From: Escherichia phage 121Q
Direction: 5' to 3' (one strand)
Sequence record: NC_025447.1
Length of the DNA: 64,000 nucleotides
Part shown: in pieces, positions 1 to 61,766 of the stretch
Layout of the letters: the number at the start of each line of letters is the position of its first letter
How positions within the stretch are numbered: the first letter of the stretch is position 1
Made by a program: the position numbers and the translations under genes
The notes under the pieces: model-generated
Told to the model about the DNA's origin: nothing
What the model saw: only the letters and a program-made list of their open reading frames with translations
The model's database searches: none

Positions 1-3000
1 AGCACTATTAAGTGTTGAGCTACCAGAAATATTAGCACTAGAAGCAGTAATAGTTCCAGAATCAACTTGTATACCACCAGCAACAACCTGAATTCCACCA
101 GCATTAACTGTTAGTTTACCAGCAGTATTCAATGTATTTGAAACTGTTGTTGCACCAGTTAAAGTTGTAGTGCCAGTTACACCTAAGTTACCAGAAATAG
201 ATGGACTACCTGTAATGTTACCAGTAGTTAGTATCAAATCAGTACCTACGGTAGTGGAGCCAGTACTTTCTAGTGTTACACCGACGATGTTTGCAGAACT
301 TAGGTTAATAGTACCATCAACAGTTAAGTTACCTTGAACGGTTGCATCACCTAGAGAAGTTAATGTCTTCACAGACACATCAGTTGTGCTAAGATCAATA
401 ACACCCGCAGTTAGTGTTCCAGATACTGCTAAATTACCAGTAATCGCGGTATTTTTAGTAATGGATACATTTTCTGCCGCTGAAGTAATAGAACCAACAG
501 TAAGTACACCACCAACAGTTGCGTTATTAGTTACATTTAGAGCAGTTCCAACACCAGATAGTGTTGCTGACCCACCAGTAATTGCACCTGAGATTGAAGC
601 TGTTGCTGCTGAAACATCACCAGAAACTACTGCATTTGTTGCATTTAGAGCAGACACTGTAACTTCAGTACTTTGAACTTTAGGTAGAACGTTGATACCT
701 TCTGCACTACTAACTGTAATAATACCAGTACTTGTTAGAGATTTAACAGATACATCAGCACCACTTAAATCAACTGTACCAGAAACAACAAGATCTCCAC
801 CAATATTTGCTCCAGCGGTAGTAGTAATGGATTTTGCACTTACATCAGTTGTGCTCAAATCAATTGCACCTGGTGTTACTGTACCAGAAACTGTTAGGTC
901 ACCAGTAATAGATGTATTATTGGAAATAGATACACCATCAACGTTACTAATTGTTGGGGTTTCTACAGAAACTGCTTTAACTTTACCTGAAGAAGTTACG
1001 TCAGCTACGGTAGATGCACCAGTAACATTCAAATTAGTAATATTTGCAGTTGTTGAACCAAGGGTTGCAATAGTTGCATCAGTACTTTGAAGTTTAGGTA
1101 GAACACTACTAATTGTGGATTCATTACTAACAATTGCACCAGTACTAGTTAAAGATTTGACAGTAACATCAGCCGTAGTAAGATCTACTGTACCATTAAC
1201 AGTTAGGTTACCACCAATAGTTGCACCAGCAGTAGTAGTAATGGATTTAGCATTAACATCAGTTGTTGCTAGATCGATAGAGCCTGGAATAACTGCACCA
1301 GTAACAGTTAGGTCACCAGTTACATTTGTATTATTGGAAATAGTGACACCACTTGCATTTGAAATGGTTGGGGTAACCAACGATGCAGTTGTAGTTTCAC
1401 CAGTTACAGTTAAAGTTGACCCAACTAGAACAGATGAGCTTGAGTAAATTGTACCCAAATTAGCAGATCCGGTAACAGTTATATCATCAGCATTAACAGT
1501 AGTTGCCGTTATGGTAGTACTATTAAGTACTGGAAGTACGTTAGCATTAACAAGATCATTACTTTTAACAATACCAGAAGTAGTTAATGATTTAACATTA
1601 AGGTCGGCTGCTGATAAATCAAAAGAGCCTTGAACTACTAAATCACCACCAATAGTTGCACCAGCAGTAGTAGTGATTGATTTAGCATTAATATCGGTAG
1701 TGCTCAAGTCTAGAGAACCAACAGTTAAGCTACCAGTAATATCAACATTTTCTGTAAAGTTAGTATTACCACTAATAGTTGGTGCAGTCAGAGTTGTTGC
1801 ACTAATATTAGTACCGTTAATTGTTTGCCCACTTACAGTTCCACTCGCAGTGATAGTAGGGGCCGTTACTTCAGTAGATGCACTAATTGTTGGTGCAGAT
1901 ACAGAAGTTGTACCAGTAATAGAACCAGAACTTACTGAACCAGCGGATAATGCACCAGAAAGAGTTGCAGTTGTACCAGCAATATCACCAGTAACAGTTA
2001 GTTTAGCACCCACGGTAGTGTTACCAGTACTTTCAAGTGTTGCACCTTTAATATTTGCTGCCGCGACAACAGAATTAGGTGTTAGATCCTGCCCACTAAC
2101 ATCAACAGTTAGTCCAGTTACTGTTCCAGTAAATTCAACATCATTAAGAATTGCTTTACCACCAACTTGTAGGAATGGTGTACCTGGAGCTTGTGTTTCG
2201 TTACCAGTAATAGTTAGGTAATCTAGTTTGTTTAGACCGTTACCAGTAATACCATAAGTGGAAAGAGAAGCGTTACCGAAAGTTGCTGTTTTAAGAACGT
2301 TCAATGTAGAAGGAGAAACGACTTCTGATTGAACTTCGTTAGGTAGAATAACTGTTGGGCGTTGACCTGGTGCAGTATATCCAAAACCTAGTTTCACTGC
2401 CGCATCTTGACTATTTTGACCTAAGCTGATAGCTTTAAAGGATGCAGTACTGTTATAACCAGTAATATTAGAACCAAGAGTAACACCACCAACTAATGAA
2501 GTTACACCAGTAACGTTCAAAGATACTGCATTAATATCGTCTAGTTGGAACGTTCCACCAAGAAGACCAGAAACATTAATGTTATTAAAATTAGCAGTAC
2601 CAGTACTTTCGATATTTGGAATAGTTGCAGTTCCGGTTACTTCAAAGTCAGCAACTTTAGTTTTTCCTTTTTGAACTTCTAATAGTGGTGTGTCTGGTGA
2701 TTGTGTATTGTTACCAGAAACTGTTAGATAATCTAATTTGTTTAGACCATTACCAGTAATACCATAAGAAGATAATGACGCATTACCAAAAGAAGCAGAG
2801 GTCAATACTGTCAAGTTTGCAGGTGACATTAGCTCGGACTGAATTTCGTTTTGTAGAATAACAGTTGGGCGTTTACCAGGAGCAGTGTAAGGGAAGCTTA
2901 ATCTGAAGGTTTGTGATTCAGAGTTAGAACCAATACGAATGTCTTTAAAAGTAGCAGTACTGTTAATACCAGTTACGTTAGCACCGAAAGTTACTGCACC

Positions 3001-3612
3001 TTGTTGGTTAGATGCACCAGTAACGTTCAATGTTACTGCATTTAAGTCAGATAGATTAAACTCACCACCAAGTGTACCACTAATTGTCACATCGTTAAAT
3101 GTAGCAGTACCAGTACTACTAATATCTGTTGTACTTACATTAGTAATTTCTGCGGTATTAGCAGTAATTTTATCAAATGCAGCAGTAGTCCCAACATCAG
3201 CAGTAATATTACCTTTAAATGCTGTTGTTTCAGCAACTTCTAAGTTTTTAACTTTAGTTGCTTGTAGAGTGGTTGTACCAGCAGTTTGTGTAAAATCAGA
3301 ACCAACTGATACAGTACCGTTAAAGGTAGCGTTTGAATTAATTGTTGCTGTATCAGACCCGACAACTGCACTACCGATTGTAGTATTACCCTCAACACCA
3401 AGACCACCAGAAAGTGTTGCTTTGCCACCTACATCTAAAGTAGATGTAATGTTGGCAGTTGATGATTCAATGGCAGTAAAAGTTGCATTTGCAAAAGTTA
3501 CAGTACCATTTACAGTTAGGTTATTGTTGAAAACAGCATTTCCTTTGACTAAAAGATCCTTACCAACCGTACCAGCACCAGTAATATCTAAGTCAGTTTT
3601 TATTGAGTACAT
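1..3612 (-). CDS. Long tail fiber protein, partial (3' end lies beyond the window start); Gly/Thr/Ser/Asn-rich with internal tandem repeats
   Basis: Minus-strand ATG at 3610-3612 preceded by GGAGG; my translation begins MYSIKTDLDITGAGTVGKDLLVKGNAVFNNNLTVNGTV and stays open as far as I read. Absent from the ORF track, presumably because it has no stop inside the window. The plus-strand ORFs 386-3682 are its antisense frames. Confidence 0.6.
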   Translation of the reverse strand, partial: MYSIKTDLDITGAGTVGKDLLVKGNAVFNNNLTVNGTVTFANATFTAIESSTANITSTLDVGGKATLSGGLGVEGNTTIGSAVVGSDTATINSNATFNGTVSVGSDFTQTAGTTTLQATKVKNLEVAETTAFKGNITADVGTTAAFDKITANTAEITNVSTTDISSTGTATFNDVTISGTLGGEFNLSDLNAVTLNVTGASNQQGAVTFGANVTGINSTATFKDIRIGSNSESQTFRLSFPYTAPGKRPTVILQNEIQSELMSPANLTVLTSASFGNASLSSYGITGNGLNKLDYLTVSGNNTQSPDTPLLEVQKGKTKVADFEVTGTATIPNIESTGTANFNNINVSGLLGGTFQLDDINAVSLNVTGVTSLVGGVTLGSNITGYNSTASFKAISLGQNSQDAAVKLGFGYTAPGQRPTVILPNEVQSEVVSPSTLNVLKTATFGNASLSTYGITGNGLNKLDYLTITGNETQAPGTPFLQVGGKAILNDVEFTGTVTGLTVDVSGQDLTPNSVVAAANIKGATLESTGNTTVGAKLTVTGDIAGTTATLSGALSAGSVSSGSITGTTSVSAPTISASTEVTAPTITASGTVSGQTINGTNISATTLTAPTISGNTNFTENVDITGSLTVGSLDLSTTDINAKSITTTAGATIGGDLVVQGSFDLSAADLNVKSLTTSGIVKSNDLVNANVLPVLNSTTITATTVNADDITVTGSANLGTIYSSSSVLVGSTLTVTGETTTASLVTPTISNASGVTISNNTNVTGDLTVTGAVIPGSIDLATTDVNAKSITTTAGATIGGNLTVNGTVDLTTADVTVKSLTSTGAIVSNESTISSVLPKLQSTDATIATLGSTTANITNLNVTGASTVADVTSSGKVKAVSVETPTISNVDGVSISNNTSITGDLTVSGTVTPGAIDLSTTDVSAKSITTTAGANIGGDLVVSGTVDLSGADVSVKSLTSTGIITVSSAEGINVLPKVQSTEVTVSALNATNAVVSGDVSAATASISGAITGGSATLSGVGTALNVTNNATVGGVLTVGSITSAAENVSITKNTAITGNLAVSGTLTAGVIDLSTTDVSVKTLTSLGDATVQGNLTVDGTINLSSANIVGVTLESTGSTTVGTDLILTTGNITGSPSISGNLGVTGTTTLTGATTVSNTLNTAGKLTVNAGGIQVVAGGIQVDSGTITASSANISGSSTLNSA
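676..1800 (-). repeat. Three tandem copies of a ~400-bp coding repeat inside the long fiber gene
   Basis: Blocks starting near 676, 1088 and 1520 share long near-identical stretches (for example accagcggtagtagtaatggattttgcacttacatcagttgtgctcaaatc versus accagcagtagtagtaatggatttagcattaacatcagttgttgctagatc); boundaries approximate. Confidence 0.5.
2219..3210 (-). repeat. Two tandem copies of a ~480-bp coding repeat inside the long fiber gene
   Basis: Copy 1 about 2219-2700 and copy 2 about 2729-3210, both starting taatcta(g/a)tttgtttagacc...accagtaataccataag; encoded units share ...PGxRPTVILxNExQSExxSP...FGNASLSxYGITGNGLNKLDYLT.... Boundaries approximate. Confidence 0.5.
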
Positions 3613-3706
3613 TTATACCCTCCATTATAACCTTGTTAATATGTATATATTTAGTTTTATTATGCTGTTATCCAACAATTAATATGTTATTTGACAAAAG
3701 CAAATA

Positions 3707-3749
3707 TAATAAAAACCAGACTTATTTAGAACAAGTCTGGTTAATTTTT
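3707..3749. terminator. Bidirectional terminator hairpin between two fiber genes
   Basis: Stem CCAGACTT/AAGTCTGG (3716-3740) flanked by an A-run and a T-run. Confidence 0.55.
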
Positions 3750-4646
3750 TTACTTACCAGAGATGACAATCTTACCACTGAAAGAAATATCAGAAGTGAA
3801 GATTACATCACCAGTACTACTAATTTGTGTATCAGTCACTACCAATTCAAATGGAGATGACGAAACACTCCCAGGTGTTTTATTTGCATAAATTGAAATA
3901 TACAAATTATCTGGTGTTTGATTGTGTTCAGATGCAGGAATAGTGATTGTAAAATCACCATCACTAGAAACCCAATCTGCTTGGTTTACCAATTTACTAT
4001 AAGGTACTGTCATTGTTGTTGCTCCTATAATGTTTACTTTAACACTTGCATAATCTGTGATTTGACCAATCACATCAATTGTTATATCCCCAATACCACT
4101 AACTGTTACTGTGGTTTGGAATACTGATTCCAATGCAACATTACCTGGGTCACCTTGTAGTTGGATCATAATATCAGAACCTCTACCATGAACTGATTCT
4201 GGTAGTGTGTAAGTATAATGATCAGTAGTATCTGGCACTAATGTAAATGCAGAAACAGGAACTATTTCAGTAGTTACATATGAGCTATCAGTCCCAGGTG
4301 AGCTACCTTTAAATGGTTTCCAAATACCAAGATCTTTAATATAAATTTGAAGAACATTAGTACTATCAACCAAAAAGTAAACGTCACCATCTAGACCGAT
4401 CGAATCGGATGGTGCTGTTGTTCCACGTAAGATACCAGAACTACCACCACCACTGTGTGCGTTTAAATATCCCAATGTAACCAAGTGTGTGTTTGCAGTT
4501 GGTTCACCTGCTGAAATTGGAAGAAGTTGTGTTCCTGAGTAGTTTTGAATTTGCACAACACTACCATTTGTGGTAATCTGTGCACCATTCTTCCCAAGAA
4601 TGAAGGACTTCTTCATGGTTCCTTCTAAATTAGAAAAAACTGCCAT
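3750..4646 (-). CDS. Receptor-binding / tail fiber protein with N-terminal module shared with the 4663-6804 gene
   Basis: 298 aa; N-terminus MAVFSNLEGTMKKSFILGKNGAQI nearly identical to the neighbouring gene; GGAG ribosome-binding site upstream; terminator hairpin immediately downstream. Confidence 0.55.
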   Translation of the reverse strand: MAVFSNLEGTMKKSFILGKNGAQITTNGSVVQIQNYSGTQLLPISAGEPTANTHLVTLGYLNAHSGGGSSGILRGTTAPSDSIGLDGDVYFLVDSTNVLQIYIKDLGIWKPFKGSSPGTDSSYVTTEIVPVSAFTLVPDTTDHYTYTLPESVHGRGSDIMIQLQGDPGNVALESVFQTTVTVSGIGDITIDVIGQITDYASVKVNIIGATTMTVPYSKLVNQADWVSSDGDFTITIPASEHNQTPDNLYISIYANKTPGSVSSSPFELVVTDTQISSTGDVIFTSDISFSGKIVISGK

Positions 4647-4662
4647 TTTAATATAATCTCCT

Positions 4663-6804
4663 TTATGGTAGGGTTATGTAAGTTACGGGTTGGGCAGCTT
4701 TTAATGCTGCACCAGCGGCAGTTGCTGTTATGATAGGATCTGCAATATCAATTCTATATACGTTGTTTACAACATACACTGCACGAGTTATATACGTTCT
4801 CAAATCACCACCATTTTCACCAGCACCGGATATAATGATCTCAGTACCAGCAGCTTTTGCATATTGGTTTTCACCCCATGACACACCCAATGCTTCTATG
4901 TATGTTTGTCCTGCTACCGTTTGTCTAATTGTGTCATATTTTCCGAAAAAAGAACCACCAACAGTTACAATATATTTTCCACCCGATTGTTTATGAATAA
5001 TCGTGCCTTCAGAGAAATAGCGTCCCCCAGGAAAAGTATCGTATGGAATATAATATTGCTCAACTACAGGTATCAGTACTGGGCCACGGTGACCTGTACC
5101 ATCGATTGCAGTTGTAACTTTAAAGTTATTAGATGATTGGTCTATTCTGTCTACATACATTTTAGAAAAACTATATTTTGAAACATTACAATCATCTTGA
5201 ACAACACAGTTAGTCCAATTAGTATAAGTATATTTAGAGCGAGTATAGATACCACCACCTTCGCCTTCGGTAGAGAGGTGTTGACCAATTACATCTAATT
5301 CTTTAGTTCTAATATCACTAAATTTAGATGATGATGGCAAACCACGCCAAAGGATTTTAGAACAAGTGATATTGCTCAATTCTGTATTATTTAACCAATT
5401 ATCAGAACCGGAAGTATAAACAAGTATAGAAGACTCTGGAATATAGAGATTAGAAATTTTAAAGTTTCTAGGTGGTCCAGCAAAACGACCAGAAGTTACA
5501 CCCCAGTTTATTGAAACCATTCTATTTGTGATAGAAGGATCATTAAGCAAATGACCAGTCAACCCATCAATAATGAATTCTTTCGAACCATAAGTTATAA
5601 CACCAGCAGTGGTTAATCCAGTACCAACAGAAACTAAAGATGATGGATAAACTTCATTATTAAGTATTTTAAAGTCCATTCCTAATTCAACGTGTATACA
5701 TTGTCTAACATTATATAGTCTGTTATTTTTAATAACAAAGTTTCTGACATATTGTGTATCTGGTGCATCTAAACCATAAGGACCAGAACCAGCAACGCCA
5801 ATACCAATGCCCCAGTTTGAAAGTGGGATTGGAGCGTTAGAACCATCAACGTTTTCAATTACGTTTCCTTCAATCACAAAACCATCAGGATAATGTGAGT
5901 TAATTACGTTTAGTTCAATTGCATCACCATAGATATCATGAATATGGTTATATGAATATCTACCAACCTTCATTTTCTCACCAGTACCTTGTTGAAGAAC
6001 ACCATACTTACATTGGGTCATTTCATTAAAGCAAAAATCTATTGTTCCTGGTTGTGTCATACCTTGCATTAAAAATGCAGCAGTACTTGTGATGTTTATA
6101 AATTTATTAAAATAAAACTTACCATCTCCACCGAAGAATTTTAAATAACATCCAGTAAGTGTTGCAAATTGTATTTGGGAATTAATAACAGATACCATAG
6201 TACCACCGTTACCAGTAATAGTTCCCCCAAACCAAGTTACATCTTCTAGGTATATTGCAGTTTTGATACGGTAATTACCACCAGCCTGAATTTGGATTTT
6301 ATTTTCTTTAGCATAAGCAGCACATAAATTTACAGCAGCAGTGTCATCAGTTTCGCCATCACCTTTAGCACCAAATTCTTCTGGTGTTATATAAAACTGG
6401 GCCTGTTGAACTGTACCTCCAGTAATAAGTCCGATGAAATCACCACCATTTTTACTGGATAGAACTTTTTTATTAATGTATAATGATTTTACCCATGTAC
6501 CATTACTTTTTGCAAAAATATCAACAATACCATCTTCATCAATTTGAAAATACGTATTATTGTTCTTTCCTACATCATCGGTAGGGGGTACAACACCAAA
6601 TAATGCATTAGGGTTATCTTCAAGATATTTTACGTTAACTGCTGAATTAGGGTCAGATGAAGTTCCTACCTTCAGTGGTAGGAACTGTTCTCCTAGATAA
6701 TCTTTTATAGAAACTGAATCATTGATAAAATTTATTGAAGCACCTTTTTTCCCCAATATGAATTTGGGCTGCATAGTTCCTTCAAAATTAGAAAATACTG
6801 CCAT
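4663..6804 (-). CDS. Tailspike-like protein with pectate-lyase-type beta-helix motif (putative polysaccharide depolymerase)
   Basis: 713 aa; shared N-terminus MAVFSNFEGTMQPKFILGKKGASI; GDGETDDTAAV motif (encoded 6340-6363) typical of pectate lyase 3 / tailspike beta-helix domains; GGGAGG ribosome-binding site. Confidence 0.6.
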   Translation of the reverse strand: MAVFSNFEGTMQPKFILGKKGASINFINDSVSIKDYLGEQFLPLKVGTSSDPNSAVNVKYLEDNPNALFGVVPPTDDVGKNNNTYFQIDEDGIVDIFAKSNGTWVKSLYINKKVLSSKNGGDFIGLITGGTVQQAQFYITPEEFGAKGDGETDDTAAVNLCAAYAKENKIQIQAGGNYRIKTAIYLEDVTWFGGTITGNGGTMVSVINSQIQFATLTGCYLKFFGGDGKFYFNKFINITSTAAFLMQGMTQPGTIDFCFNEMTQCKYGVLQQGTGEKMKVGRYSYNHIHDIYGDAIELNVINSHYPDGFVIEGNVIENVDGSNAPIPLSNWGIGIGVAGSGPYGLDAPDTQYVRNFVIKNNRLYNVRQCIHVELGMDFKILNNEVYPSSLVSVGTGLTTAGVITYGSKEFIIDGLTGHLLNDPSITNRMVSINWGVTSGRFAGPPRNFKISNLYIPESSILVYTSGSDNWLNNTELSNITCSKILWRGLPSSSKFSDIRTKELDVIGQHLSTEGEGGGIYTRSKYTYTNWTNCVVQDDCNVSKYSFSKMYVDRIDQSSNNFKVTTAIDGTGHRGPVLIPVVEQYYIPYDTFPGGRYFSEGTIIHKQSGGKYIVTVGGSFFGKYDTIRQTVAGQTYIEALGVSWGENQYAKAAGTEIIISGAGENGGDLRTYITRAVYVVNNVYRIDIADPIITATAAGAALKAAQPVTYITLP

Positions 6805-6818
6805 TATGACATCCTCCC

Positions 6819-7970
6819 TTAAATATTATCTTGAATCGGTTGGATAGGAGCTTGCCATGAAAGAGTACAAATAATTTCCATTTTTCCATAAGGACTGTTG
6901 TTAACAGAATCGTTGAATACACATGAAATAATTTCATCAACATCGGATGCTGCATGATTAGTTTCATTAACAATAAAACGCATCTGACGATTGATATCAA
7001 AGTAGGAAGTTGGTGCAATTACCGTCCCGCCAATATCTTCTTGTGCTTCACCACCAAAACGTACAAACATATCAGTTACTGGAAGAGAATAAGGTTGTAT
7101 AACGTTTACATCAATATTAGAAACTACATATCCAGCAGGACATGTACCAATAACTAATAGTGCGTTAGTCCATGAGCTATCTATGGTATTTCTAATAGAA
7201 ATTGTATCTTTACCTGGTGCACCTGGTTCGCCTTGTATACCTTGAATACCTTGCTGGCCTTCTTTACCACGGAATAGAATACCCTCACTCCACTCTTTTG
7301 AAGGAGGGGTAGTTGTAGTTACTTCATCAACATAATATAGTTTTCCATCAGTGTTGTTATAAAAACAATAATCAACTGGAAGATTTTCAATACTTGGAAA
7401 TTGATCACCACTGCTATCAATATGGAAACGACCACGCGGACCTTGTTCACCACGGAAAGGTATACCATCACTCCAAGTAGCAGTTACACTTTGATAGAAA
7501 TAAAGTTTACCATCTTGAGTATTATAAAATGTATAGTTATTAAAAAGACCAGTTGTTGGGAAAGTAGTTCCAGCACTATCAATGTGGAACGGCTTACCCG
7601 CTTCACCCGTATCACCTTTACCAAACTCAACACTAATCCATGTACTTGTCGGATCTTGTGCATCATTTGATTTAAAGTATAGAGTACTGGTATTGTTAGC
7701 CAAGCTTAAGTAGCACCACCCAAGTGGTTCACCAACTTTAAATTGTTCGGAAGGAATTTCAAAACCAATCTCATTAGGATAAAAGTTTTTACCATTCTCG
7801 CCATTCTGTCCTACAACAAGACCTAAATCTTGAATTGTGTTATCTGCATAGGTTACAATTAAATGCCCAGCACCATTAATAACTAGACTTTTGATGCCGG
7901 AGTTATTACATGAACCATTAAATGAAATTGTCATAATATTTCCCTTGTATGAGTTAATGTCATATACCAA
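6819..7970 (-). CDS. Tail fiber protein with collagen-like Gly-X-Y triplets
   Basis: 383 aa; GEQGPRGR and GKEGQQGIQGIQGEPGAPGKD collagen-like runs, each preceded by a duplicated ~60-aa unit (FHIDSAGTTFP... and FHIDSSGDQFP...). Confidence 0.5.
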   Translation of the reverse strand: MVYDINSYKGNIMTISFNGSCNNSGIKSLVINGAGHLIVTYADNTIQDLGLVVGQNGENGKNFYPNEIGFEIPSEQFKVGEPLGWCYLSLANNTSTLYFKSNDAQDPTSTWISVEFGKGDTGEAGKPFHIDSAGTTFPTTGLFNNYTFYNTQDGKLYFYQSVTATWSDGIPFRGEQGPRGRFHIDSSGDQFPSIENLPVDYCFYNNTDGKLYYVDEVTTTTPPSKEWSEGILFRGKEGQQGIQGIQGEPGAPGKDTISIRNTIDSSWTNALLVIGTCPAGYVVSNIDVNVIQPYSLPVTDMFVRFGGEAQEDIGGTVIAPTSYFDINRQMRFIVNETNHAASDVDEIISCVFNDSVNNSPYGKMEIICTLSWQAPIQPIQDNI

Positions 7971-8044
7971 TATTTATCAGTACAAAATACATTTCGTTAT
8001 CATTAATAAATAAATGAAAGTTCACTACTAAAAGGGCTTAAACA

Positions 8045-8542
8045 ATGGCATTAAGATCAAAAGACTTTCTCTTCAGAAGAAAAACAAAAGATGGTTCATG
8101 GCAAGATTTTCCTGAATCTGATAGCTGGTATCCAGCTAACTTGGATTATCACTGGAATGAACAAACGTTACCACTAGCAAGTGGTGGCTACTATGGCTGT
8201 ACTACAGGTTTACATACGATTTCATTTACACTACGTAATTTTATTGGTAGAATTTATGTGTTAGCTACATTAGCTAGTAATCCTACTGATGATGATTGGT
8301 TTCCAATTAAATTCACTGAAAGTTGTAATTATTATCTTGAATTTACTGATATGGTTATTTTAAATCCAAATGGTGGGGATTTAATTAGACAACAAGGAAC
8401 TACCGGAACATTTGCTGAAACAGTAACTGGTAATTTTACTTACCTTAAAGTTGGTATAGACCGTGATTATATTAGTAAGTATCCATCAGATGTCCAAAAA
8501 AGTTTAGCTGGGAAGTTAGAACAAATTTTAATTAACTACTAA
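8045..8542 (+). CDS. Hypothetical protein (first gene of plus-strand island)
   Basis: 165-aa ORF with AAGGG ribosome-binding site; no recognisable motif. Confidence 0.4.
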   Translation: MALRSKDFLFRRKTKDGSWQDFPESDSWYPANLDYHWNEQTLPLASGGYYGCTTGLHTISFTLRNFIGRIYVLATLASNPTDDDWFPIKFTESCNYYLEFTDMVILNPNGGDLIRQQGTTGTFAETVTGNFTYLKVGIDRDYISKYPSDVQKSLAGKLEQILINY

Positions 8543-8551
8543 GGATTAGAA

Positions 8552-9160
8552 ATGAAATTAGAAACAGAACAACCAAAACTATTTGTTAAAGGTCATGTCC
8601 TAATTACTGACGTTACTGATCCATCAAATCAAAAAATCGTTTTAGATAAATCTAACGCTATTCACCCTGAAAATATGAGTACTGCCATTGCTAATGCGTT
8701 AGCATATAATCAAGACAGTACTGGTATTCCTATTGGTTCTATTAGCGAGATGCGTTTTGGTAATGGTGGTACAGTAGTTTTAAGTACTGGGCGTGTTACT
8801 TATAAAAAACCACGTGTTACATCATTTGGTGGTTTGTATTCACAAACATATTTGAAAAAAATCAACCCAAGAATTACGGCTGGTATCGATTCACAATATA
8901 ATAATATTACGACTGTTCATATACCAGGTCAGTCCTATACTGATATTGTATGTATTTGTACTTTAGGCTTAGGTGAACCATCAGATCAAGGTGTGAGTTC
9001 AGGGACAAGCATGGACGGAACATATGTGTTTGATGAATTGGGATTATACACCGATGGTGATAGTGGTATTCCTTTAACACATATTATTTTCCACCCAGTT
9101 GAAAAAAGTGCAAACCGTGTTTTGCAAATTAAATACACTGTGCGTGTACAACTACAATAA
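8552..9160 (+). CDS. Hypothetical protein
   Basis: 202-aa ORF tightly packed after the previous gene; GGA ribosome-binding site. Confidence 0.4.
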   Translation: MKLETEQPKLFVKGHVLITDVTDPSNQKIVLDKSNAIHPENMSTAIANALAYNQDSTGIPIGSISEMRFGNGGTVVLSTGRVTYKKPRVTSFGGLYSQTYLKKINPRITAGIDSQYNNITTVHIPGQSYTDIVCICTLGLGEPSDQGVSSGTSMDGTYVFDELGLYTDGDSGIPLTHIIFHPVEKSANRVLQIKYTVRVQLQ

Positions 9161-16050: not shown

Positions 16051-19000
16051 TTACTTAACTAATAATATATTTTTAATATCATTACCACTAACTTGTAGAC
16101 TATCAGTGTATACTGAAAGATCTATAGTGTAACTATTTTGTGTGTAACGTTTTAACATATCATAATTACCTAAATTAATTCCATTGAAAGAATATGTAGT
16201 ATTAAGTTTAAAATCATGTTCTGCACTATACATTACACCACGGAGTAAATTATTTGCATTTCTAACTTCAACTTTTTCATATCCAATCGATATAATATCA
16301 TTCATGTTTGCGGCTGAACCGGATAAAACATTATTTCTAATACTATAAGGACTTATTGATTTAGGTTGAGAAACATAGGTTGTATTTTCTTCACTAATGG
16401 TTGTGATGTTAGTAACAGTACCACCAACAACACCGATATACATACCGTCAACCATTGGGAATCCATAAACCCATATCCCTTCATTATTTCTAAACGGTTG
16501 AATAACACTTGAATCATATTCGATAACGTTGATTTCTAAACTATCAGTCATTTTAGTTCTTGCCAATTCACTAAGAACTCCCGCACCCGTAATTGGTAAG
16601 TTATAACCGTTATCGATAGTAATTCCATCAACATCAAATATTTCATTAGAGATTATCCAAACGTCAACGTCATCTGGTGTTATTCCGTCATTGTACTTAC
16701 CACCATTTAAAGTAGTATCGTAGAAAACATCATAATTAATTACATCAATGGTGTAATTTCTATTTTGTTCATACAATTTAATACCATTCTTGACAAATTC
16801 AGGGTCAGCAAATGTTCTAACACGAACAATGTTCAATGCTAGAGGCTGTACTGGCTCATTTTGTTGTGCAAGAGTGATGTTATCATAACGGAGAACTGCA
16901 CCAGTACTCTCATCAATCAATTCAATCGTTTCCTTACCTGTATTTCTTACAGTGAATAGGATCGGAGTTGTATTGTTTTTGATGTTAGATACACGCAAGA
17001 TTGTTTCCCATGTGTGATTTTGATATCTCACAAAATCTTCACCATCAGGAGTGAAAATCATCACCTTATCACCATCAGATAGGTCATTGTCAACTATTTC
17101 TGCTTCAGTTAAGCTATTAATAGATCTCACACGATAGAAATATTTTTCATCAAACTTCGATGTTGTTTTATTAATATCATTTTCAATCTTAGCATATGAA
17201 GGAATACTTACAATTGCTTCTGTATGTTTATATGGATTGATAATTGCCATACCTTCAGTTTGATATCTGCTGTTATCACGTAATTGTACAAGAGATACAT
17301 TGTCAAACCCATATCCATCAACTGTAAATCTAATTTGACCTACATCACGCCCAGAAGGGTTTATGTCAGATATATCCACAATATAAGGATCAACTTCATC
17401 ATCTTTAACTTCCCATTTTATTGAAGAAGTTTGAGATTCCAATGCTAGGTTATCAAATGCATTCATATCATTGAAGTACTTAGCTTCAGTAATACTATCA
17501 AGTATATATTGATAATCAGAATACATTGGATTATTTTGATCTAGTGGTAAATCATCAAGATTTATTTCAGCTAGTTCAACCATTTCACCATTTGTGATAA
17601 AATAATCTTCCATGAAATCATCAATACTTTGTTCATCAGGTATACTTTGATATACACCGTTAACATTTAAGTAAACATATTTTCGTGGAATCATTGTAAT
17701 TGCATAGATATCAATTGGGGTCTTACTAAGAATCTCTTCAGCTTTTTCGTACTTATCAGTAGCGTCTTTGTCGAATAACCCTCTCATACCTGCTAATACG
17801 TGAATAGCATCAGTATAGAAACGGGTATCACCACCTACTTCATCATAACGATAAACATATACACCATACTCAACTTCAAGTTTAACTTTTACTTCATAGT
17901 CTGATGCGTCAGGATTTTTATCTTTAATTAATGAAATGTATTTTTGATACAATTCACTGCTTATTTCAAAATATCCATAGTTATAATCATTACTAGAAGA
18001 AAAGCCTAATGGAAGTCTAGTACTAGGATTGTCATTATAAGTAAGTCCACTAAATCCACATCCAACTTCATCGTGAATTTTCTCATCACTTATATCTTTA
18101 TAAAGTTTCAAACGGTTTGCCAATGTGTTATACTGAACATATTGTCTAAGGTCAGTAAACATATCGTTATGCGTTGATTCTTTATAAACACGTTCCAATG
18201 TAGCAGTGAATTCATCAGTTGCTTCTAAATCTTCCGCATGGTCTTTATACCACTGGTTAACGCCATATGCTGTTCCTAGTGTTACATCCAATTCTGGATA
18301 GTAGATTTGCATTTGATAAGCAATAAGAAGATCGAAAGTTTCTTCACTATATTCTGGGAAAGAATATATATAACGTTGTAATTCATAGTTACTAACAGCA
18401 TCCTTTTCATTGGATTGATATTTGTTATTAACACTTACTAATTCATTTATGCTTGCCAAATCTTCATTTGGTTTACACTGAATATTATCATAATGCATAA
18501 TAATATCAATTTCTTGGAATCTTCTATTTGGTGTAACGAAATCACTTGGTAGTGAACCTACCTGTTCCCATTTTTGGGTAATTTCATTAAATTGAGCGTA
18601 CTCATAATCCCAAATATCTTTTTCAGTTTTGATCCAAGAACCGTCAACGAAAATATATCCATTAGGATCTAAATCATTACATAGACCTTTTATTAAATCA
18701 TCATCAGATGTCTTTTGCTCTATTTGTGAACGAATTTTAGTTCTATAAGGTTTAACTTCTTCAAAATATTCAACAATTTGATTAATCAAATTATCGTTTG
18801 AATAGTTTTGAACTAATGATTGTTCCAAACCAACAATATAGATATATGATGTTTTAAATACCCAATCCACAACACTTTGTTCAACATGTACATATTTGAC
18901 CATATCAAAAACAATTTCGCTTTGATGTAAATCGAAAGAATTTTTGAGTAAAGCTAGTGCTTTACGAACGTTGATTTCACGATTGCTTAGTGATCCATTA

Positions 19001-22000
19001 TCATTATGAACACTATAATCTGCGTAAAGCATATCATTGAGTTCAACTGTACTGTTTTCACGACCAATCGCTTTCCAATAAATTGAATCGCGTGATTGTG
19101 ATTTAATATACAATGTCCAAATGTTTTCACTATCGGTAACTCTGATAATATCGCCAACTTGGTAGTTTTTAGTATTAGCATCTTCTAAGCTTGACTCTTG
19201 TGTATAAGTCGTGTTACTATCATACCCAACATCATACCAATCAGCATATGACCAGTACTGAGTCATGTCCAATGAAGTTCCCAGTGATTCAACATAATCA
19301 GATTGTTTAATCATTTTATGTTGACCCTCACCTTTGTTCTCTAACGTTATAGTAACAACACTACCCGCGTTTGCTGGACTATTCATTAACTGAATATATC
19401 CATTTTCGTCGAAGTGAATAAAATAAACAGCACTAGAAGTTAATGGATTTGGTAGATATCCACTAGTACTTAAAATAACAGCGTCATTTTCTTTAAATTT
19501 ATCACTTTCAACTGCAATAACTAATTCATTATTGTAAGACAATACACGGAAAGAAACTTCATTCGGATTAACTTCAGTGGTTTTAACATTAAACACATCT
19601 TCCATAACAACACTATTAGTGGTTATGTTTTGTGACCTATAATAATTATTAGCACTTTCTACAAAGTTTCTACGAGCTTCTATAACATTTTGGAACCAAG
19701 TTTTGTTTGAACCTAAACCGTTATCAACATCTGGATATAATAAATTAATCACAGAACCTGATTCAGTTGTTTCTTGACCAATTAGTGAGTTCCACATTGA
19801 ATCCCAAATTAGTGGGTTAAAGTTATAGCTGTCACCTTCTTTACATAGTTGATACTGGTCATGTTTAACAACTTCAGTACTATCCATGTAATAAGAAACA
19901 GTTAAAATACTGGTATCATCATTCACTTTAAATTGCATATTACTAAGAATAAACGAGTTTTCATTGATTGGAGCGAACCAAGGAATGTTTAGCTGTGTTG
20001 GATCTTTAATAATACGAGCAATGTCAGTACATGATTTTGTTCTGGTATGTAGTGGTGGTACATAAATTGTATCACGTACCCAGAAATAGTATTTTGTCAC
20101 ATAACTATCAGTTGAACTATCATATTCCAAAAATGTACTATAATTATCTTCAAGTGCAGTTCCACTTGGTAGATACATAGTATTATTTTTGTTTTTCTTA
20201 GCAACATCTTTACAGTATTTGTCCCAGTTATATGGCTCAACTGGTGAACAAACCCACTCTAACACATCAATTGTACTATGTGGTAATAAACGACCCCAGT
20301 TGTAACGTTTGTATTCATTGGTTGCATCAATATCAACATTACCGTCTGCGTCATAAATTGCACGAGTATAATCCAAATAAAATGCAGTGCTAGTGTTCCA
20401 CCATACTTGACCAACTTTATCAGCACCCCAAGCCTGGATTAACTCTCCATTACTATTATACTGTGCAGGATCAACTGGTGAAGTATATGTTACGTTTTGC
20501 ATAGCCGCACCTGGAATAACACCATTAATTGGGTCATAAACGTTTAGATATAGCTCAGTAATGTTAGTACGTTCATCATATGTCGTTGGACGATCAAATA
20601 AAGTACTTTGTGGTGCTTTAAAACTATATTTCTTGTCAATGTAAGCTTGACGTTCATCAGTACTGGCAAAACGTGATACATAACGATACAAACGTGGACG
20701 TGTATCTGGATCAGTAAATTCAATATCAATAGAAGTGTCAAATGGAACTACCATAACTTTAGGATCAGAACCAGCAGTATAATATTGACTTTCTACTGTT
20801 AAAGTATCTGGCATAAAGTTAGTTTCATCAACAAAATAATAATAATCACCATCTTCAAGTGGTACATTATCAGTTAAAGTTACTTTACAAAATTGTTCAG
20901 CATACACATCGGTATTTTCAATAGGTGTTATAGAAACCATTTGCACATTAGTATCAACCAATTCAAAAATGTTCCACAAACCATTACCGTCTTTAAACAT
21001 CCACACAGATTCAGGATTTTCACCTTTACCATTAGTATAAGTTATGCGGTCATTATATGCAGTACTGAAATCTTTTGTTGTGTACGATACTTCATCCAAT
21101 GTTACTGGACCAATATCTGGAAGTTGGATGTTTTCACTTCTTCCACTACGCATTGGGAATGAGAACTTACCATTTGGACGTGTAATCCAACGAGGATCTT
21201 TACCCTGCTCACCGAAGTATACAATATGATTACCATTACCATTTGAAGTTGCATTTACATCAAAAGAAACCATTTGAGGTTGTTGTTTAAATTGGTCATT
21301 GATTAGTTTAAATTGAAGGTTTTTCTTACCATCAATATTACCATATGTACCAATTTTAAATGCCCATTCTTGTAATGCTTTATATTCATCAGTGTCATAT
21401 GATTTAGAAACACGAAGTACACGTTCTAAAACTTGGTTAGTACCTTTATCGTGAATGAATCCTTTATAGAAATCAACACGACTAACATCACTGCTAATCA
21501 TACGCTGTAGATAATCACGAGATTGATAACCAATCAAATGGTTTGACAACTCTTGTAATTGTACATCACTTACTGGAGTTTCACTATCATAATAATGTTG
21601 GAAATCCGACACTAATTTTTCAAATGATGGTAGTGTTCCAGCTTCCAAGATAATAAATCCAGGAGCTTGTAGGCGACCAGTCCATGAACCAGTAATATAT
21701 CCATACATTTTAATTAGTTCTTGAATAGAACCATATGTTGGCTGATAAATGTAATCACCAAAAATAGTTTTATCATCAAAAATAACAGCATGTTCATATG
21801 AACACAAACTTAAACGAATCAATGCAATGCGTTTATTAGATTCTAAAGTTCTAACAGTGAAGATATTTCCAATACGAGAAGTTTCAATTTCATATTGGCG
21901 AATACCTTGGTTATTATCATCAAGTAATGACCATACACCACCATTATTTTGCGTAATAGATTGTACTGAACCAAAGTCTGCCCCAAATTTAGCGTTTGCA

Positions 22001-25000
22001 GCACTTGGGGTACAAGAAATAAATTCACCAGTTACTAGAGAATTCTGACTCCAGATCACGAAATCTTTAGCAATAGTGTTCCAATCTTGTTGAGCACCAC
22101 TATCATTTACATCTTCAAAAATCCAACCATGTTCTTTAAGATATTCACCATATCCACAAATAAAAGTATAAACTTCTTGGTAACTATTGAAAACTTTACC
22201 ATATTCAATTGAAGCTTCAGACTTCCATTCATTATAATGAACAACATTACGGTTTTCCAATTTAAGAGTTACTTTTCTACCATTTTTTACGGGAAGTTTA
22301 TATTTAAATTTAGCACCAACTAGATCATATCCATCAATCTGATATGCACTACCATTCCAAGTAATTTTGATCGCACTCATTTGCTCATCACGGATATTAT
22401 TAGAACGAACAAGACCAATGGTTTGGTTTTCTTGTGAAATAAGACCGAAAGATTTAGCATTGAATGTTAGCTGATCTGCTTTAGTAAATCCTCCAATTTT
22501 ATGACCAACATTTATATAAGAAGAACGAACTACATCCCCATACTTGGTGGTAATATTTTTATTTTGATACATCAAATGGTCACTTACAAACATTTGATAA
22601 CCAATTGTTCTTGTGCTATTTTCACCATGAACTACTGTATTTTTATCAAAATTAATACGCTTACGTGTATCACCATAAAGGAATTGTGAACCATCAGTGA
22701 ATACTTCTTTTAAGTTATCATTGCGGGTATCCCAGAAATAGTTAGCAAATTGTGCTGGTTTAGCTTTATACAAAAGCATCATTTGGTCATATGCAAACAA
22801 TGTAGTGTTCATGTATGTAAATTCCATGTCACCCATATCACCATATGTCCAAGGTTCTGCTCTATGATTTAAAGATCCAGACACTAAACCTAAAATTTCA
22901 GGTGCAATATATTCAACCACACAAATATCAATACCAGAAGATGTTTTATTTCCAGTTTTTGTAATTTTGAATGGCTGTACACCAAATCTTTTATATTTGT
23001 CATATTGACCACGACGATCACCAAATAAAATAGTTCCAGTACTGCTATCGCCAATAGTTCCGTCAATATCCCAAAGACCACTAGGAACTAAATCACCTTG
23101 CTCATTCATAACAAGTGCTTCATATACATATACAACATCACTATCACGTTCACCAACTTGAACAGCCGTTGGTTCGTATTCTTGGTTCCACCAAGTTGGA
23201 CGTTGTGTAAAGCCAAACATTTCCCACGGATGGGTAGCTGGGCGATATGTACCATATTGGTCAGTGTAAATGGCACGCCATGAACCACGTGCAGGAATTT
23301 CAGTACTTTGACCATTAACTACATAATAAGTGCCAGTATAGTTCCAAGTTCTCCAATTGTTAGGATCATAATCATGTGTACTATTACTGATACCATTAGT
23401 TGCGGTGAAGTTAATGTATCCACGTAGTAATAATGTTTGTTTCTCTTCAGCACTATATTCAGTTTTAGTGAAATATGGTGTAGGGAAAAGGTCATCACTA
23501 TTCAATACTGGTACGTAATCAACATCTTTGAATTTATTATCAATACTATTAAAAATTCTATTTTCTAATTCATATACAACATCATCCATTTTATCAACAC
23601 CATTGATAACACGGTATGCTTTGGAAATAATACCAGTATGACTGATGTTATAACAGCTTGGTTTACTACCAGCAGTGAGGAATGTCGCTTTTTCTGGTAC
23701 ATATGCTTGAAGAATACCTAAGAACTGTGGTGTTGGTGGTATAAATGCACGAATGAATCCAGAAGTACTTCCAACATTATCATAATAGAATGGGAATGAA
23801 CTATCACGTCCCATATTAATAGTAGTTAAAATTGCATCAACAATGTTTGCAGCACTATTTTGTAAAAAGTCTGATGGATTTTCATCATACATACGAAGCA
23901 TTTGTGTATTAAATTTATTAATGAATCTAAAATATTCAGATTGCATAAACATAGTTGCTTCAAATAAATCAATATCTTCATTTGCAGTATGTGCCATCAA
24001 TGGAAGCATAGATGCTTCATTTTGGATAATTTTAGTACCTACGCCATTATTAACCAATCCTTTAGCCAAACGTTCTTCATAGTCATTGAAATCATCAGAA
24101 GAACCACGTGTAATGTTCTTTTGAATAATATCCTGAAAATGTAAAGTGTAGTCACCTTGGTTAATGTATATAATATTGGAATTGTATGGGTTATTTTGTA
24201 AGTTAATTGGAACTTCATATGCACCTAATTCTTTATTAGGAGTTACAGTACTGCTATAAGTTCTAATTTGAATAACTGAATCTTCATCCAAATCTACAGT
24301 GCTATCTAAGGTGATACTTTGAACTTGACCTTTTGATACATTTTTGGTATATTTTGATACATCAACACCATCAACAACAACTTCAATTATGTCAGAATCA
24401 TTATCTAAAACTTTTTGTGCTAATTCGAATGTGTGGTCATATTTTACAATCTGAACACCATCACCAGTGATTGGATGCCAGTCTAGATAAGTTTCGCGGT
24501 CTGCTTTATAGTACTGATAGGTTCTATCAACTTCAATAACATATGCATACATACCATCAACTGGTTCTTTAAAAACTTCCATATCATAAACAGTACTGAA
24601 TACACGATACATATCAGTACGTTTGACTTGTGGAGTTTGTTTTACAAATTGTTTAGAGTACTCTTCTGAACGAACCCAATCGGTTTGAAGATTCATTTCA
24701 TTATTTTCATCAATAATGTTATAATAGTATAAACCATCAATTTCAACTTCTTTTCCAAGATGGTCATAGGTATAACGTTGGGATTGTAAAAAGTTTTCAT
24801 AAATGTAATAATTATAATCACCAAGTTCAATGTTATATCCATATACACTATCAGTTGCATAGTTGTAATTTATTTTAAAACCAAACAACTCTGAACCTTT
24901 AAAGTTACTGGATGGATATGTAGTACTGTTGTCAAGTTTGATACCATTACGATCATAAAGTTGGAATTTAGGGAATATGTTAACACTAGTTTTTGATTGT

Positions 25001-61466: not shown

Positions 61467-61766
61467 ATGAAAATTAAAATGATTAATGATTACGTTCTTG
61501 TTCGACAAATTGAAGCACAGAATAAAAGTACTGGTGGTATTATTCTAGGTAATGTTGAACCACCATGTATTGGGATGGTAATTTCCGTTGGTCCAGGTAA
61601 AATTCTTCCGAACGGACAACTTGCAGAACATAATATTAAAGAAGGTGATATGGTTGTGTTTGGTCGTTCATCTTTGAACACACCTCTGACTGAAGATCTT
61701 GGTGGTGGTGAAGATACATATTATGTAATGAAAATCGAAGAGATTTTTGGTAAGAAAAATGGCTAA
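61467..61766 (+). CDS. GroES-like co-chaperonin (Cpn10)
   Basis: MKIKMINDYVLVRQIEAQNKSTGGIILGN...GMVISVGPGKILPNGQ...IKEGDMVVF parallels E. coli GroES ([25 protein letters not shown]...GEVLAVGNGRILENGE...VKVGDIVIF). Start set to the ATG at 61467 (GGAGG upstream). Confidence 0.75.
   Translation: MKIKMINDYVLVRQIEAQNKSTGGIILGNVEPPCIGMVISVGPGKILPNGQLAEHNIKEGDMVVFGRSSLNTPLTEDLGGGEDTYYVMKIEEIFGKKNG

What the first reader, a model, noticed from the sequence alone, without database searches (positions are those of the whole stretch)
6340..6363. Pectate-lyase-type GDGETDDT motif in the 713-aa tailspike
The motif GDGxTDDTxA is characteristic of right-handed beta-helix polysaccharide-degrading tailspikes (pectate lyase 3 / GH28-like). 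It predicts that the phage recognises and cleaves a capsule, exopolysaccharide or O-antigen.
Basis: partly seen in the sequence, partly recalled or inferred. Interest (0 to 1): 0.5.

Follow-up and report, generated by a model that had tools for sequence, protein, structure and literature searches.

The report
Known phage colanic-acid-degrading tailspike
The motif is real and sits in a tailspike enzyme of a giant E. coli phage that digests the bacterial slime layer (colanic acid), but this exact protein is already described in the literature, so the finding is correct and ordinary.

Summary
Window 6340-6363 (minus strand) encodes GDGETDDT, residues 148-155 of a 713-aa ORF (4663-6804, minus). 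About 7e-6 such motifs are expected by chance in the window.

The window comes from an Asteriusvirus, a PBECO4/121Q-like jumbo coliphage. The protein is 100% identical in amino acids to PBECO4 gp547, which is annotated 'colanic acid degradation' and linked to the colanic-acid-degrading enzyme paper of Kim et al. 2015. From residue 96 to the end it is 57% identical to phage phi92 gp150, whose crystal structure (PDB 6E0V) is titled 'colanidase tailspike'. An AlphaFold model matches 6E0V (TM 0.92). All further structural matches are right-handed beta-helix tailspikes.

Three refinements apply:
- **Substrate:** it is colanic acid.
- **Chemistry:** it is most likely hydrolysis, not lyase or GH28 chemistry.
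- **Role of the motif:** it is only the N-terminal cap of the beta-helix. It is lost in most family members, including the J8-65 (NST1-like) colanidase. The family-invariant signature is LQQ / GD.IE.NV / NWGIGIG / RQ..H.E at residues 269-372, and the host protein WcaM shares it.

Residues 1-104 form a lineage-specific anchor module shared with the adjacent 298-aa gene. Novelty: already known.

The parts
4663..6804 (-). Gene for the 713-aa (77.7 kDa) colanic-acid-degrading tailspike (colanidase), identical in protein sequence to PBECO4 gp547
   Evidence: ORF. 100% aa identity to PBECO4 gp547, SHEFM2K M2K_0543 and an unannotated phAPEC6 ORF. PHROG 6117 'colanic acid degradation' E = 3e-264. PDB 6E0V E = 1.8e-235.
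6340..6363 (-). GDGETDDT motif (residues 148-155): short strand and the start of the capping helix at the N-terminal end of the beta-helix
   Evidence: In the AF2 model DSSP gives strand 148-152 and helix 154-167, with pLDDT above 90 from residue ~141. The motif is kept only in relatives of at least 51% identity.
6493..6804 (-). N-terminal module (residues 1-104), the presumed virion-anchor domain; unrelated to the phi92 gp150 N-terminus
   Evidence: 38% identical (E = 9e-21) to residues 1-104 of the neighbouring 298-aa ORF. tblastn hits to the syntenic genes RaK2 ORF061w and CBB_227 'structural protein'. Homology to phi92-type gp150 starts only at residue 96. Low model confidence (pLDDT below 50 for residues 1-62).
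6379..6492 (-). Neck/linker (residues 105-142) with short helices before the beta-helix
   Evidence: DSSP helices at 111-114, 119-123, 131-134 and 140-143, pLDDT 56-74. PHROG tail-fibre and tail-spike families align to residues ~91-227.
5245..6378 (-). Right-handed parallel beta-helix body (residues ~143-520)
   Evidence: The AF2 model shows continuous short strands at pLDDT mostly above 90. Foldseek matches 6E0V and other beta-helix tailspikes. PF12708 gives a partial match to residues 143-250.
5689..6000 (-). Family-invariant residues and candidate active face (residues 269-372): L269, Q271, G292-D293-x-I295-E296-x-N298-V299, W330-GIGIG-335, R366-Q367-x-x-H370-x-E372
   Evidence: Invariant in 34 diverse homologues, and in J8-65 colanidase and E. 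coli K-12 WcaM. The catalytic role is inferred, not tested.
4666..5244 (-). C-terminal domain (residues ~521-713), conserved in phage colanidases and absent from WcaM
   Evidence: Aligned to the end with phi92 gp150 and J8-65. WcaM ends near the column of residue ~556. Function (trimerisation or substrate binding) is not tested.
6813..6818 (-). Shine-Dalgarno GGGAGG, 8 nt upstream of the ATG, abutting the TAA stop (6819-6821) of the upstream tail-protein gene
   Evidence: Read directly from the sequence.
3750..4646 (-). Adjacent 298-aa virion structural protein gene that carries a paralogous N-terminal module
   Evidence: PHROG 10468 'virion structural protein' E = 1.5e-100.
6819..7970 (-). 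Upstream tail-protein gene (383-aa ORF; likely true start at M13), first gene of the three-gene cassette
   Evidence: PHROG 13565 'tail protein' E = 2e-220 from residue 13. The phAPEC6 homologue gp253 was detected in virions by MS (PMC7247149). It is syntenic with RaK2 ORF062w and CBB_228.
3714..3742 (-). Terminator-like hairpin (13-bp stem followed by a T-rich tail) just after the 298-aa ORF
   Evidence: This is a consensus match only.

Best explanation
The motif lies in the gene for the colanidase tailspike of an Asteriusvirus (PBECO4-like jumbo coliphage).

**Modules of the protein**
- Residues 1-104: an N-terminal anchor specific to this jumbo-phage lineage.
- A short neck.
- Residues ~143-520: a right-handed beta-helix.
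- A C-terminal domain.

**Proposed mechanism**
Mounted on the tail, and probably trimeric like other tailspikes, it binds colanic acid. Colanic acid is the Rcs-induced exopolysaccharide that masks the surface receptors of E. coli and Salmonella. The enzyme cuts its backbone by hydrolysis into repeat-unit oligosaccharides, so the phage can tunnel to the cell surface. The catalytic groove is most likely formed by the family-invariant residues on successive rungs: D293/E296/N298, W330-G335 and R366/Q367/H370/E372.

**Role of the motif**
The GDGETDDT motif is the strand-to-helix cap that closes the N-terminal end of the beta-helix. It marks the fold, not the chemistry.

**Shown versus inferred**
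- Shown here: sequence identity to PBECO4 gp547, homology to phi92 gp150 (6E0V), the fold, and the module boundaries.
- Taken from the literature: colanic-acid degradation by this enzyme and its relatives.
- Inferred: the catalytic residues, the hydrolytic mechanism for this particular protein, trimer formation and virion attachment.
For: **Identity and close homology**
- 100% aa identity to PBECO4 gp547 'colanic acid degradation'.
- PMC10059673 ties PBECO4 gp547 to Kim et al. [quoted passage not shown]'.
- 57% identity over residues 96-712 to phi92 gp150. Its PDB entry 6E0V is titled 'Apo crystal structure of the colanidase tailspike protein gp150 of Phage Phi92'.

**Fold**
- The AF2 model has pLDDT 81 and TM 0.92 to 6E0V. 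The other top hits are beta-helix tailspikes.

**Family membership**
- PHROG 6117 'colanic acid degradation', E = 3e-264.
- More distant relatives are annotated colanidase tailspikes in Vequintavirinae-like, phi92-like and phiKMV-like phages.
- J8-65, whose tailspike is 87% identical to NST1 colanidase, makes expanding halos on mucoid E. coli (PMC4179555).

**Chemistry**
- The NST1 enzyme yields a ~1148 Da repeat unit and reducing ends (PMC9143390).

**Candidate active site**
- Invariant acidic and polar residues are conserved across 34 homologues, J8-65 and WcaM.

**Genomic context and anchor**
- The gene sits in a tail-gene cassette with a good SD sequence, between virion-protein genes.
- The N-module is shared with the neighbouring structural protein and with CBB_227 'structural protein'.
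Against: - The primary papers (Kim 2015; Schwarzer 2012) could not be read here. The experimental claim therefore rests on their titles, database annotations and citing papers.
- The phAPEC6 virion proteome lists the flanking proteins (gp253, gp256, gp250c, gp251c) but no ~78 kDa protein. However, the gene is not annotated in that record, so this is not informative.
- PHROG files the family under 'moron/auxiliary metabolic gene', not 'tail'.
- The catalytic residues and the hydrolase mechanism are not demonstrated for this protein.
- Asteriusvirus SHEFM2K is reported to possibly use flagellar structures as receptor (PMC11895373). Colanic acid may therefore be a barrier to remove rather than the essential receptor.
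Confidence: 0.9

Rival explanations
1. The enzyme is a polysaccharide lyase (beta-elimination, as in pectate lyases) rather than a hydrolase.
For: The weak Pfam match is to the 'pectate lyase-like' family PF12708. Structural neighbours include an alginate epimerase/lyase (8JA4) and the lyase RbmB (9OZL). Colanic acid contains glucuronic acid.
Against: - The PF12708 score is below threshold.
- The NST1 relative is described as a hydrolase that releases a 1148 Da repeat unit with reducing ends.
- From established knowledge of colanic acid structure, the Glc-Fuc-Fuc backbone holds no uronic acid. GlcA is in the side chain, so beta-elimination could not depolymerise the backbone.
- The closest structural neighbours after 6E0V are mostly hydrolytic tailspikes (HK620, Sf6, CBA120).
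Confidence: 0.05
2. The protein is a soluble, non-virion enzyme released at lysis (an 'auxiliary' depolymerase), not a tail-mounted spike.
For: The PHROG category is 'moron, auxiliary metabolic gene and host takeover'. It is not listed among phAPEC6 virion proteins.
Against: - The gene lies inside a tail-protein cassette.
- It carries an N-terminal module shared with structural proteins of the same locus in this phage, CBB and RaK2.
- Homologues carry other classical anchor domains: P22 head-binding PF09008, T7 tail-fibre N-terminus PF03906 and TSP1/Gp66 N-terminus PF18668.
- phi92 gp150 was predicted to form tail spikes in cryo-EM reconstructions of that phage.
- The phAPEC6 record lacks the CDS altogether, so the absence from the MS table is uninformative.
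Confidence: 0.07
3. The beta-helix is only a receptor-binding fibre with no catalytic activity, or it acts on a different glycan (an O-antigen or a Klebsiella-type capsule).
For: The protein is only 57% identical to phi92 gp150. Beta-helix tailspike specificity often shifts at that distance. DepoCatalog lists 'colanidase-like' depolymerases in its collection of Klebsiella-phage enzymes.
Against: - The protein sequence is identical to PBECO4 gp547, the protein tied to the colanic-acid-degrading enzyme paper.
- Every family-invariant polar residue is retained.
- The hosts (E. coli, Salmonella) all make colanic acid.
Confidence: 0.04

Closest known systems
PBECO4 gp547 (YP_009150861.1), the colanic acid-degrading enzyme of Kim et al. 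2015 (AEM 81:900)
   Same: 100% identical amino-acid sequence, the same gene neighbourhood and the same phage genus, Asteriusvirus.
   Different: No difference at the protein level. The window's nucleotide sequence differs at about 0.1% of positions.
Phage phi92 gp150 colanidase tailspike (PDB 6E0V/6E0W)
   Same: 57% identity over residues 96-712, covering the neck, GDGxTDDT cap, beta-helix and C-terminal domain. The model superposes with TM 0.92.
   Different: The N-terminal anchor is unrelated. The phi92-type protein has ~188 residues (PF26208) where this protein has a 95-104 aa jumbo-phage module. The phages differ too: ~350 kb Asteriusvirus against the ~146-150 kb phi92-type phages.
NST1 / J8-65 colanidase tailspikes (phiKMV-like podoviruses)
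   Same: About 31-34% identity over the beta-helix and C-terminal domain. All invariant residues are retained. Colanic-acid degradation is documented by halos, repeat-unit release and reducing ends.
   Different: They lack the GDGxTDDT cap motif, reading TNNTGYAS instead. They use a T7-type tail-fibre N-terminus, PF03906.
E. coli WcaM (b2043), last gene of the colanic acid (wca) operon
   Same: The beta-helix core is homologous: BLASTP E = 2e-23, hhalign probability 99.9%, TIGR04004 E = 2e-26. It shares GDAIE.NV, NWGIGIG and RQ.IHVE.
   Different: WcaM is a 464-aa host protein with no phage anchor, no GDGxTDDT cap and no C-terminal domain. The query scores 92.6 bits against the 794.6-bit equivalog cut-off, so it is not a WcaM. 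WcaM's own function is listed only as 'putative'.
Pfam PF12708 (Pectate_lyase_3 / Pect-lyase_RHGA_epim) and GH28 beta-helix enzymes
   Same: The right-handed beta-helix fold and the FGAxGDGxTDDTxA N-terminal cap typical of PF12708.
   Different: The score is below the PF12708 gathering cut-off. There is no GH28 (PF00295) match. The substrate and the conserved residues are different.

Membership tests
Colanidase tailspike family (phi92 gp150 / PBECO4 gp547; PHROG 6117; Pfam PF27800 in newer releases) | Full-length homology of the beta-helix plus C-terminal domain to a structurally solved member | tested here: met
   6E0V E = 1.8e-235 over residues 96-712. PHROG 6117 E = 3e-264 over profile positions 98-709 of 711. 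All homologues carry precomputed PF27800. That model is not in the local Pfam copy, so its name could not be read.
Colanidase tailspike family (phi92 gp150 / PBECO4 gp547; PHROG 6117; Pfam PF27800 in newer releases) | Right-handed parallel beta-helix fold | tested here: met
   AF2 model pLDDT 81.4. Foldseek gives 6e0v_A E = 5e-62 with TMt 0.92, and further hits are beta-helix tailspikes.
Colanidase tailspike family (phi92 gp150 / PBECO4 gp547; PHROG 6117; Pfam PF27800 in newer releases) | Family-invariant residues (LQQ, GD.IE.NV, NWGIGIG, RQ..H.E) | tested here: met
   All are present at residues 269-372.
Colanidase tailspike family (phi92 gp150 / PBECO4 gp547; PHROG 6117; Pfam PF27800 in newer releases) | Enzymatic degradation of colanic acid | not testable with these tools
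   Literature only. The sequence is identical to PBECO4 gp547, which PMC10059673 links to Kim et al. 2015. The primary paper is not held.
Colanidase tailspike family (phi92 gp150 / PBECO4 gp547; PHROG 6117; Pfam PF27800 in newer releases) | Virion (tail) attachment, trimeric spike | not testable with these tools
   Indirect only: the tail-gene cassette, the shared N-terminal module with structural proteins and the prediction that phi92 gp150 forms tail spikes.
Pfam PF12708 Pectate_lyase_3 / Pect-lyase_RHGA_epim | Score at or above the gathering cut-off (27 bits) | tested here: not met
   24.3 bits, E = 3.2e-5. Only profile positions 6-110 of 213 are matched, by residues 143-250.
GH28 (polygalacturonase-type glycoside hydrolases, PF00295) | Match to the GH28 profile | tested here: not met
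   No PF00295 hit at E <= 1.
Polysaccharide lyase mechanism (pectate-lyase type) | Beta-elimination at a 4-linked uronate, giving an unsaturated product | not testable with these tools
   The NST1 relative is reported as a hydrolase. From general knowledge, the colanic acid backbone lacks uronic acid.
WcaM (TIGR04004 / NF007517 equivalog) | Score at or above the equivalog cut-off (794.6 / 808 bits) | tested here: not met
   92.6 and 91.4 bits, with only residues 262-459 aligned. It has a homologous core but is not a WcaM.

The most novel reading that the evidence does not exclude
The phage colanidase core and the host's own WcaM are one enzyme family. WcaM is the last gene of the colanic-acid operon and its function is still listed as 'putative'. 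The two share every invariant residue of the presumed active face. On this reading WcaM would itself be a colanic-acid glycosidase, for example trimming or releasing the polymer, and phage colanidases would be captured or diverged versions of it. The Asteriusvirus gene would then be a chimera: a lineage-specific ~100-aa anchor, duplicated in the next gene, fused to a phi92-type colanidase body. The evidence here does not exclude this reading. It does not show activity for WcaM or the direction of transfer, and I could not establish whether the link is already published.
Probability: 0.45. Interest if true: 0.35.

Novelty: already known. Interest (0 to 1): 0.1.

Why it matters
Colanic acid overproduction (mucoidy) is a common, broad route to phage resistance in E. 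coli (PMC6242692). Phage colanidases remove that barrier and can even rescue other phages (PMC4179555). Correct recognition of this gene therefore matters for phage-cocktail design and for making low-molecular-weight colanic acid.

For this window the result is confirmatory, because the protein is already known and a homologue has a solved structure. Three practical points follow:
- The GDGxTDDT motif is a useful flag for the fold but a poor marker for the colanidase family.
- The invariant 269-372 signature is the better marker.
- Several public records mis-annotate or omit this gene.

Tried and rejected
- **Primary papers.** I tried to read Kim et al. 2015 (PMC4292498, PMID 25416767) and Schwarzer et al. 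2012 (PMC3457257). Neither is held, so I relied on citing papers and record annotations.
- **WcaM literature.** Searches for a published functional or structural link between WcaM and tailspikes gave nothing usable.
- **Asteriusvirus receptor.** A receptor-screen preprint that includes phage G17 gives no receptor data for it in the main text.
- **Promoters.** The sigma-70-type scan is no better than shuffled sequence (26 found against 27.5 expected), so no promoter is claimed.
- **Opposite-strand ORFs.** ORFs inside the gene on the + strand (4730-4996, 4906-5136) and a minus-strand ORF (6788-7018) overlapping the start of the gene are not annotated in any relative. I treat them as shadow ORFs.
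- **Other family assignments.** GH28, the Beta_helix Pfam family and WcaM-equivalog membership were all rejected on score.
- **Geometry of the invariant residues.** I could not measure it because model coordinates are not exposed. That they form one face is inferred from their ~36-residue spacing in consecutive strands (295-299, 330-336, 367-372).
Full report
**1. Observation**

The reverse complement of window 6340-6363 encodes G-D-G-E-T-D-D-T. It forms residues 148-155 of a 713-aa ORF at 4663-6804 on the minus strand, in the context FGAKGDGETDDTAAVNLCAAYA. GDGxTDDT occurs once in all six frames of the window. From the window's own residue frequencies, 7e-6 occurrences are expected by chance. 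The ORF has a GGGAGG ribosome-binding site 8 nt upstream of its ATG, directly after the stop codon of the preceding gene.

**2. What the gene is**

Megablast places the window in the Asteriusvirus group of ~350-kb jumbo coliphages (PBECO4, UB, G17, Sharanji, SHEFM2K, phAPEC6 and others). Thirty records hold the full gene, 17 of them at 99% identity or more.

The translated protein is identical, residue for residue, in three places:
- PBECO4 gp547 (YP_009150861.1, 'colanic acid degradation')
- SHEFM2K M2K_0543
- an intact but unannotated ORF in phAPEC6

PMC10059673 links PBECO4 gp547 to Kim et al. [quoted passage not shown] I could not read the primary paper. My recollection that it names ORF547 is memory, not a tool result.

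Further sequence and structure evidence:
- PHROG 6117 'colanic acid degradation' matches end to end, E = 3e-264.
- The PDB search finds phi92 gp150 (6E0V/6E0W) at E = 1.8e-235 over residues 96-712, at 57% identity.
- An AlphaFold2 model built on 34 homologues has mean pLDDT 81.4 and is above 90 over most of the beta-helix.
- Foldseek matches that model to 6e0v_A, 'Apo crystal structure of the colanidase tailspike protein gp150 of Phage Phi92', at E = 5e-62 and TM 0.92.
- The next hits are CBA120 TSP2/TSP3, Acinetobacter capsule depolymerases, HK620 and Sf6 tailspikes and alginate epimerases, all right-handed beta-helices.

**3. Anatomy**

- **Residues 1-104, lineage-specific module.**
  - It is 38% identical (E = 9e-21) to the N-terminus of the next gene downstream, a 298-aa 'virion structural protein' at 3750-4646.
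  - It also matches the syntenic genes of related jumbo phages: RaK2 ORF061w, which is only 115 aa and so little more than this module, and CBB_227 'structural protein'.
  - In all of these phages the module-bearing gene follows a ~375-aa tail protein, which here is 6819-7970. Its phAPEC6 homologue gp253 was found in virions by MS.
  - Homology to phi92-type gp150 starts only at residue 96, where the phi92-type protein is at residue 189.
  - The Asteriusvirus gene is therefore a chimera of a local anchor and a phi92-type colanidase body.
- **N-termini in other family members.** The same body is attached to P22 head-binding (PF09008), T7 tail-fibre (PF03906), TSP1/Gp66 (PF18668) or other N-termini. 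This is the usual modular pattern of tailspikes.
- **Residues 105-142, neck.** Helical, moderate confidence.
- **Residues ~143-520, beta-helix.**
- **Residues ~521-713, C-terminal domain.** Conserved in phage colanidases.
- **Transcription unit.** A terminator-like hairpin at 3714-3742 follows the 298-aa gene. This suggests a three-gene unit of tail protein, colanidase and 298-aa protein. No promoter can be called.

**4. What the motif does**

In the model, residues 148-152 form a short strand and 154-167 form the helix that precedes the first rung. This is the N-terminal cap of the beta-helix.

The weak Pfam hits cover just this region:
- PF12708, residues 143-250, 24.3 bits against a cut-off of 27
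- PF12218 endosialidase N-terminal extension, residues 146-182, E = 0.009

Many PHROG tail-fibre and tail-spike families align only to residues ~91-227.

It is not a signature of this enzyme family:
- In the 34-sequence alignment it is present only in relatives of at least 51% identity (Asteriusvirus and phi92-like).
- It is replaced by unrelated residues in all others.
- One of those is the J8-65 'tailspike colanidase', which reads TNNTGYAS. That tailspike is 87% identical to the characterised NST1 colanidase, and the phage makes expanding halos on mucoid E. coli (PMC4179555).

The invariant positions are L269, Q271, G292, D293, I295, E296, N298, V299, W330-G335, G338, R366, Q367, H370 and E372. 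They fall in strands 295-299, 330-336 and 367-372 of the model. These strands are spaced about 36 residues apart, as expected for successive rungs on one face. I infer that this face is the catalytic groove, with D293/E296 and E372 as candidate carboxylates. This is by analogy with the Asp/Glu pairs of the HK620, Sf6 and P22 tailspikes, which is established knowledge. It is not tested here.

**5. Mechanism**

Colanic acid capsule induction is a shared resistance route against unrelated phages (PMC6242692). A colanidase-bearing phage clears the layer and even helps T7 (PMC4179555).

The NST1 enzyme is described as a hydrolase that gives a 1148 Da product matching the repeat unit, and it releases reducing sugar (PMC9143390). 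From general knowledge, the colanic acid backbone (Glc-Fuc-Fuc) has no uronic acid, so a lyase could not depolymerise it. 'Pectate-lyase type' should therefore be read as a description of the fold only. GH28 membership is not supported, because there is no PF00295 hit.

Whether colanic acid is an obligatory receptor or only a barrier for Asteriusvirus is open. A citing paper reports that SHEFM2K may use flagellar structures as receptors.

**6. Relation to the host**

The core (residues 262-459) matches the WcaM equivalog models at E = 2e-26. E. coli K-12 WcaM aligns at BLASTP E = 2e-23 and hhalign probability 99.9% over 341 columns. It keeps GDAIE.NV, NWGIGIG and RQ.IHVE.

This explains why several phage records call the gene 'colanic acid biosynthesis protein'. 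It also suggests that WcaM may itself act on colanic acid. I could not find out whether this is already published.

**7. Verdict**

The object is an already known protein, with experimental work cited for the identical sequence and a solved structure for a 57%-identical homologue.

- Novelty: already known.
- Interest: low.
- Remaining uncertainty: the catalytic residues, the hydrolase mechanism and virion location for this particular protein, and the WcaM link.

Noticed in passing
window 5689-6000 (-) versus E. coli K-12 wcaM (L006:6503-7897 -): The host colanic-acid operon protein WcaM, whose function is listed as 'putative', is a clear homologue of the phage colanidase beta-helix core. It retains all family-invariant residues (GDAIE.NV, NWGIGIG, RQ.IHVE) but lacks the cap motif and the C-terminal domain.
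   Followed up: partly
L003 (phAPEC6 MK817115) 7001-9142 and the adjacent 298-aa ORF slot: The phAPEC6 GenBank record has no CDS over the intact colanidase ORF, which is 100% identical in protein, or over the slot where the 298-aa gene lies in the relatives. Locus tags jump from gp253 to gp256. The published virion proteome therefore cannot be used to argue that the protein is absent from virions.
   Followed up: partly
window 1-3612 (-); L002 (PBECO4 NC_027364) 583-4923: The window begins inside a ~1840-aa tail-fibre gene. The first 1204 codons are open and 100% identical to SHEFM2K M2K_0545. The PBECO4 RefSeq record instead annotates small ORFs on the opposite strand (gp549-551) over this region. 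The window's + strand ORF at 2939-3682 (247 aa, the same length as gp549) is probably such a shadow ORF. The fibre also shows internal self-similarity: a second tblastn alignment at 36% identity is offset along the gene.
   Followed up: partly
relatives listed: The same gene is variously annotated as 'putative MutT/NUDIX hydrolase family protein' (CRJP21), 'colanic acid biosynthesis protein' (Sharanji, slurp01, BF17, UE-S1, fEgEco12), 'hypothetical protein', or is split in two (SD-6_S16, SD-1_S14).
   Followed up: no
window 3750-4646 (-) and 6493-6804 (-); L004 5001-5348; L005 4001-4861: A ~104-aa N-terminal module is duplicated in two adjacent genes, the colanidase and the 298-aa structural protein. 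It occupies a conserved slot after the ~375-aa tail protein in RaK2 (where it is a stand-alone 115-aa protein), CBB, GAP32-like and Yersinia/Erwinia jumbo phages. It is probably a docking domain for exchangeable receptor-binding proteins.
   Followed up: partly
window 6819-7970 (-): The 383-aa tail protein contains a short collagen-like G-X-Y run (residues ~235-253; Pfam Collagen E = 0.006, sub-threshold). It also has two internal ~35-aa repeats (…FHIDSAGTTFP…YTFYNTQDGKLYFY… and …FHIDSSGDQFP…YCFYNNTDGKLYYV…). The listed TTG start is probably 12 codons too early, because the PHROG match starts at residue 13.
   Followed up: no
window 61608-61763 (+): There is a weak similarity (29% identity over 55 aa, E = 0.024) to residues 52-102 of the colanidase N-terminal module. 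It could be another protein with the same short G..G..Y…W-type fibre motif, or it could be chance.
   Followed up: no
window 16051-26052 (-): A 3333-aa ORF lies 9 kb from the finding. It may correspond to the 382 kDa hypothetical protein gp245 that was detected in phAPEC6 virions; the correspondence was not checked. Its function is unknown.
   Followed up: no
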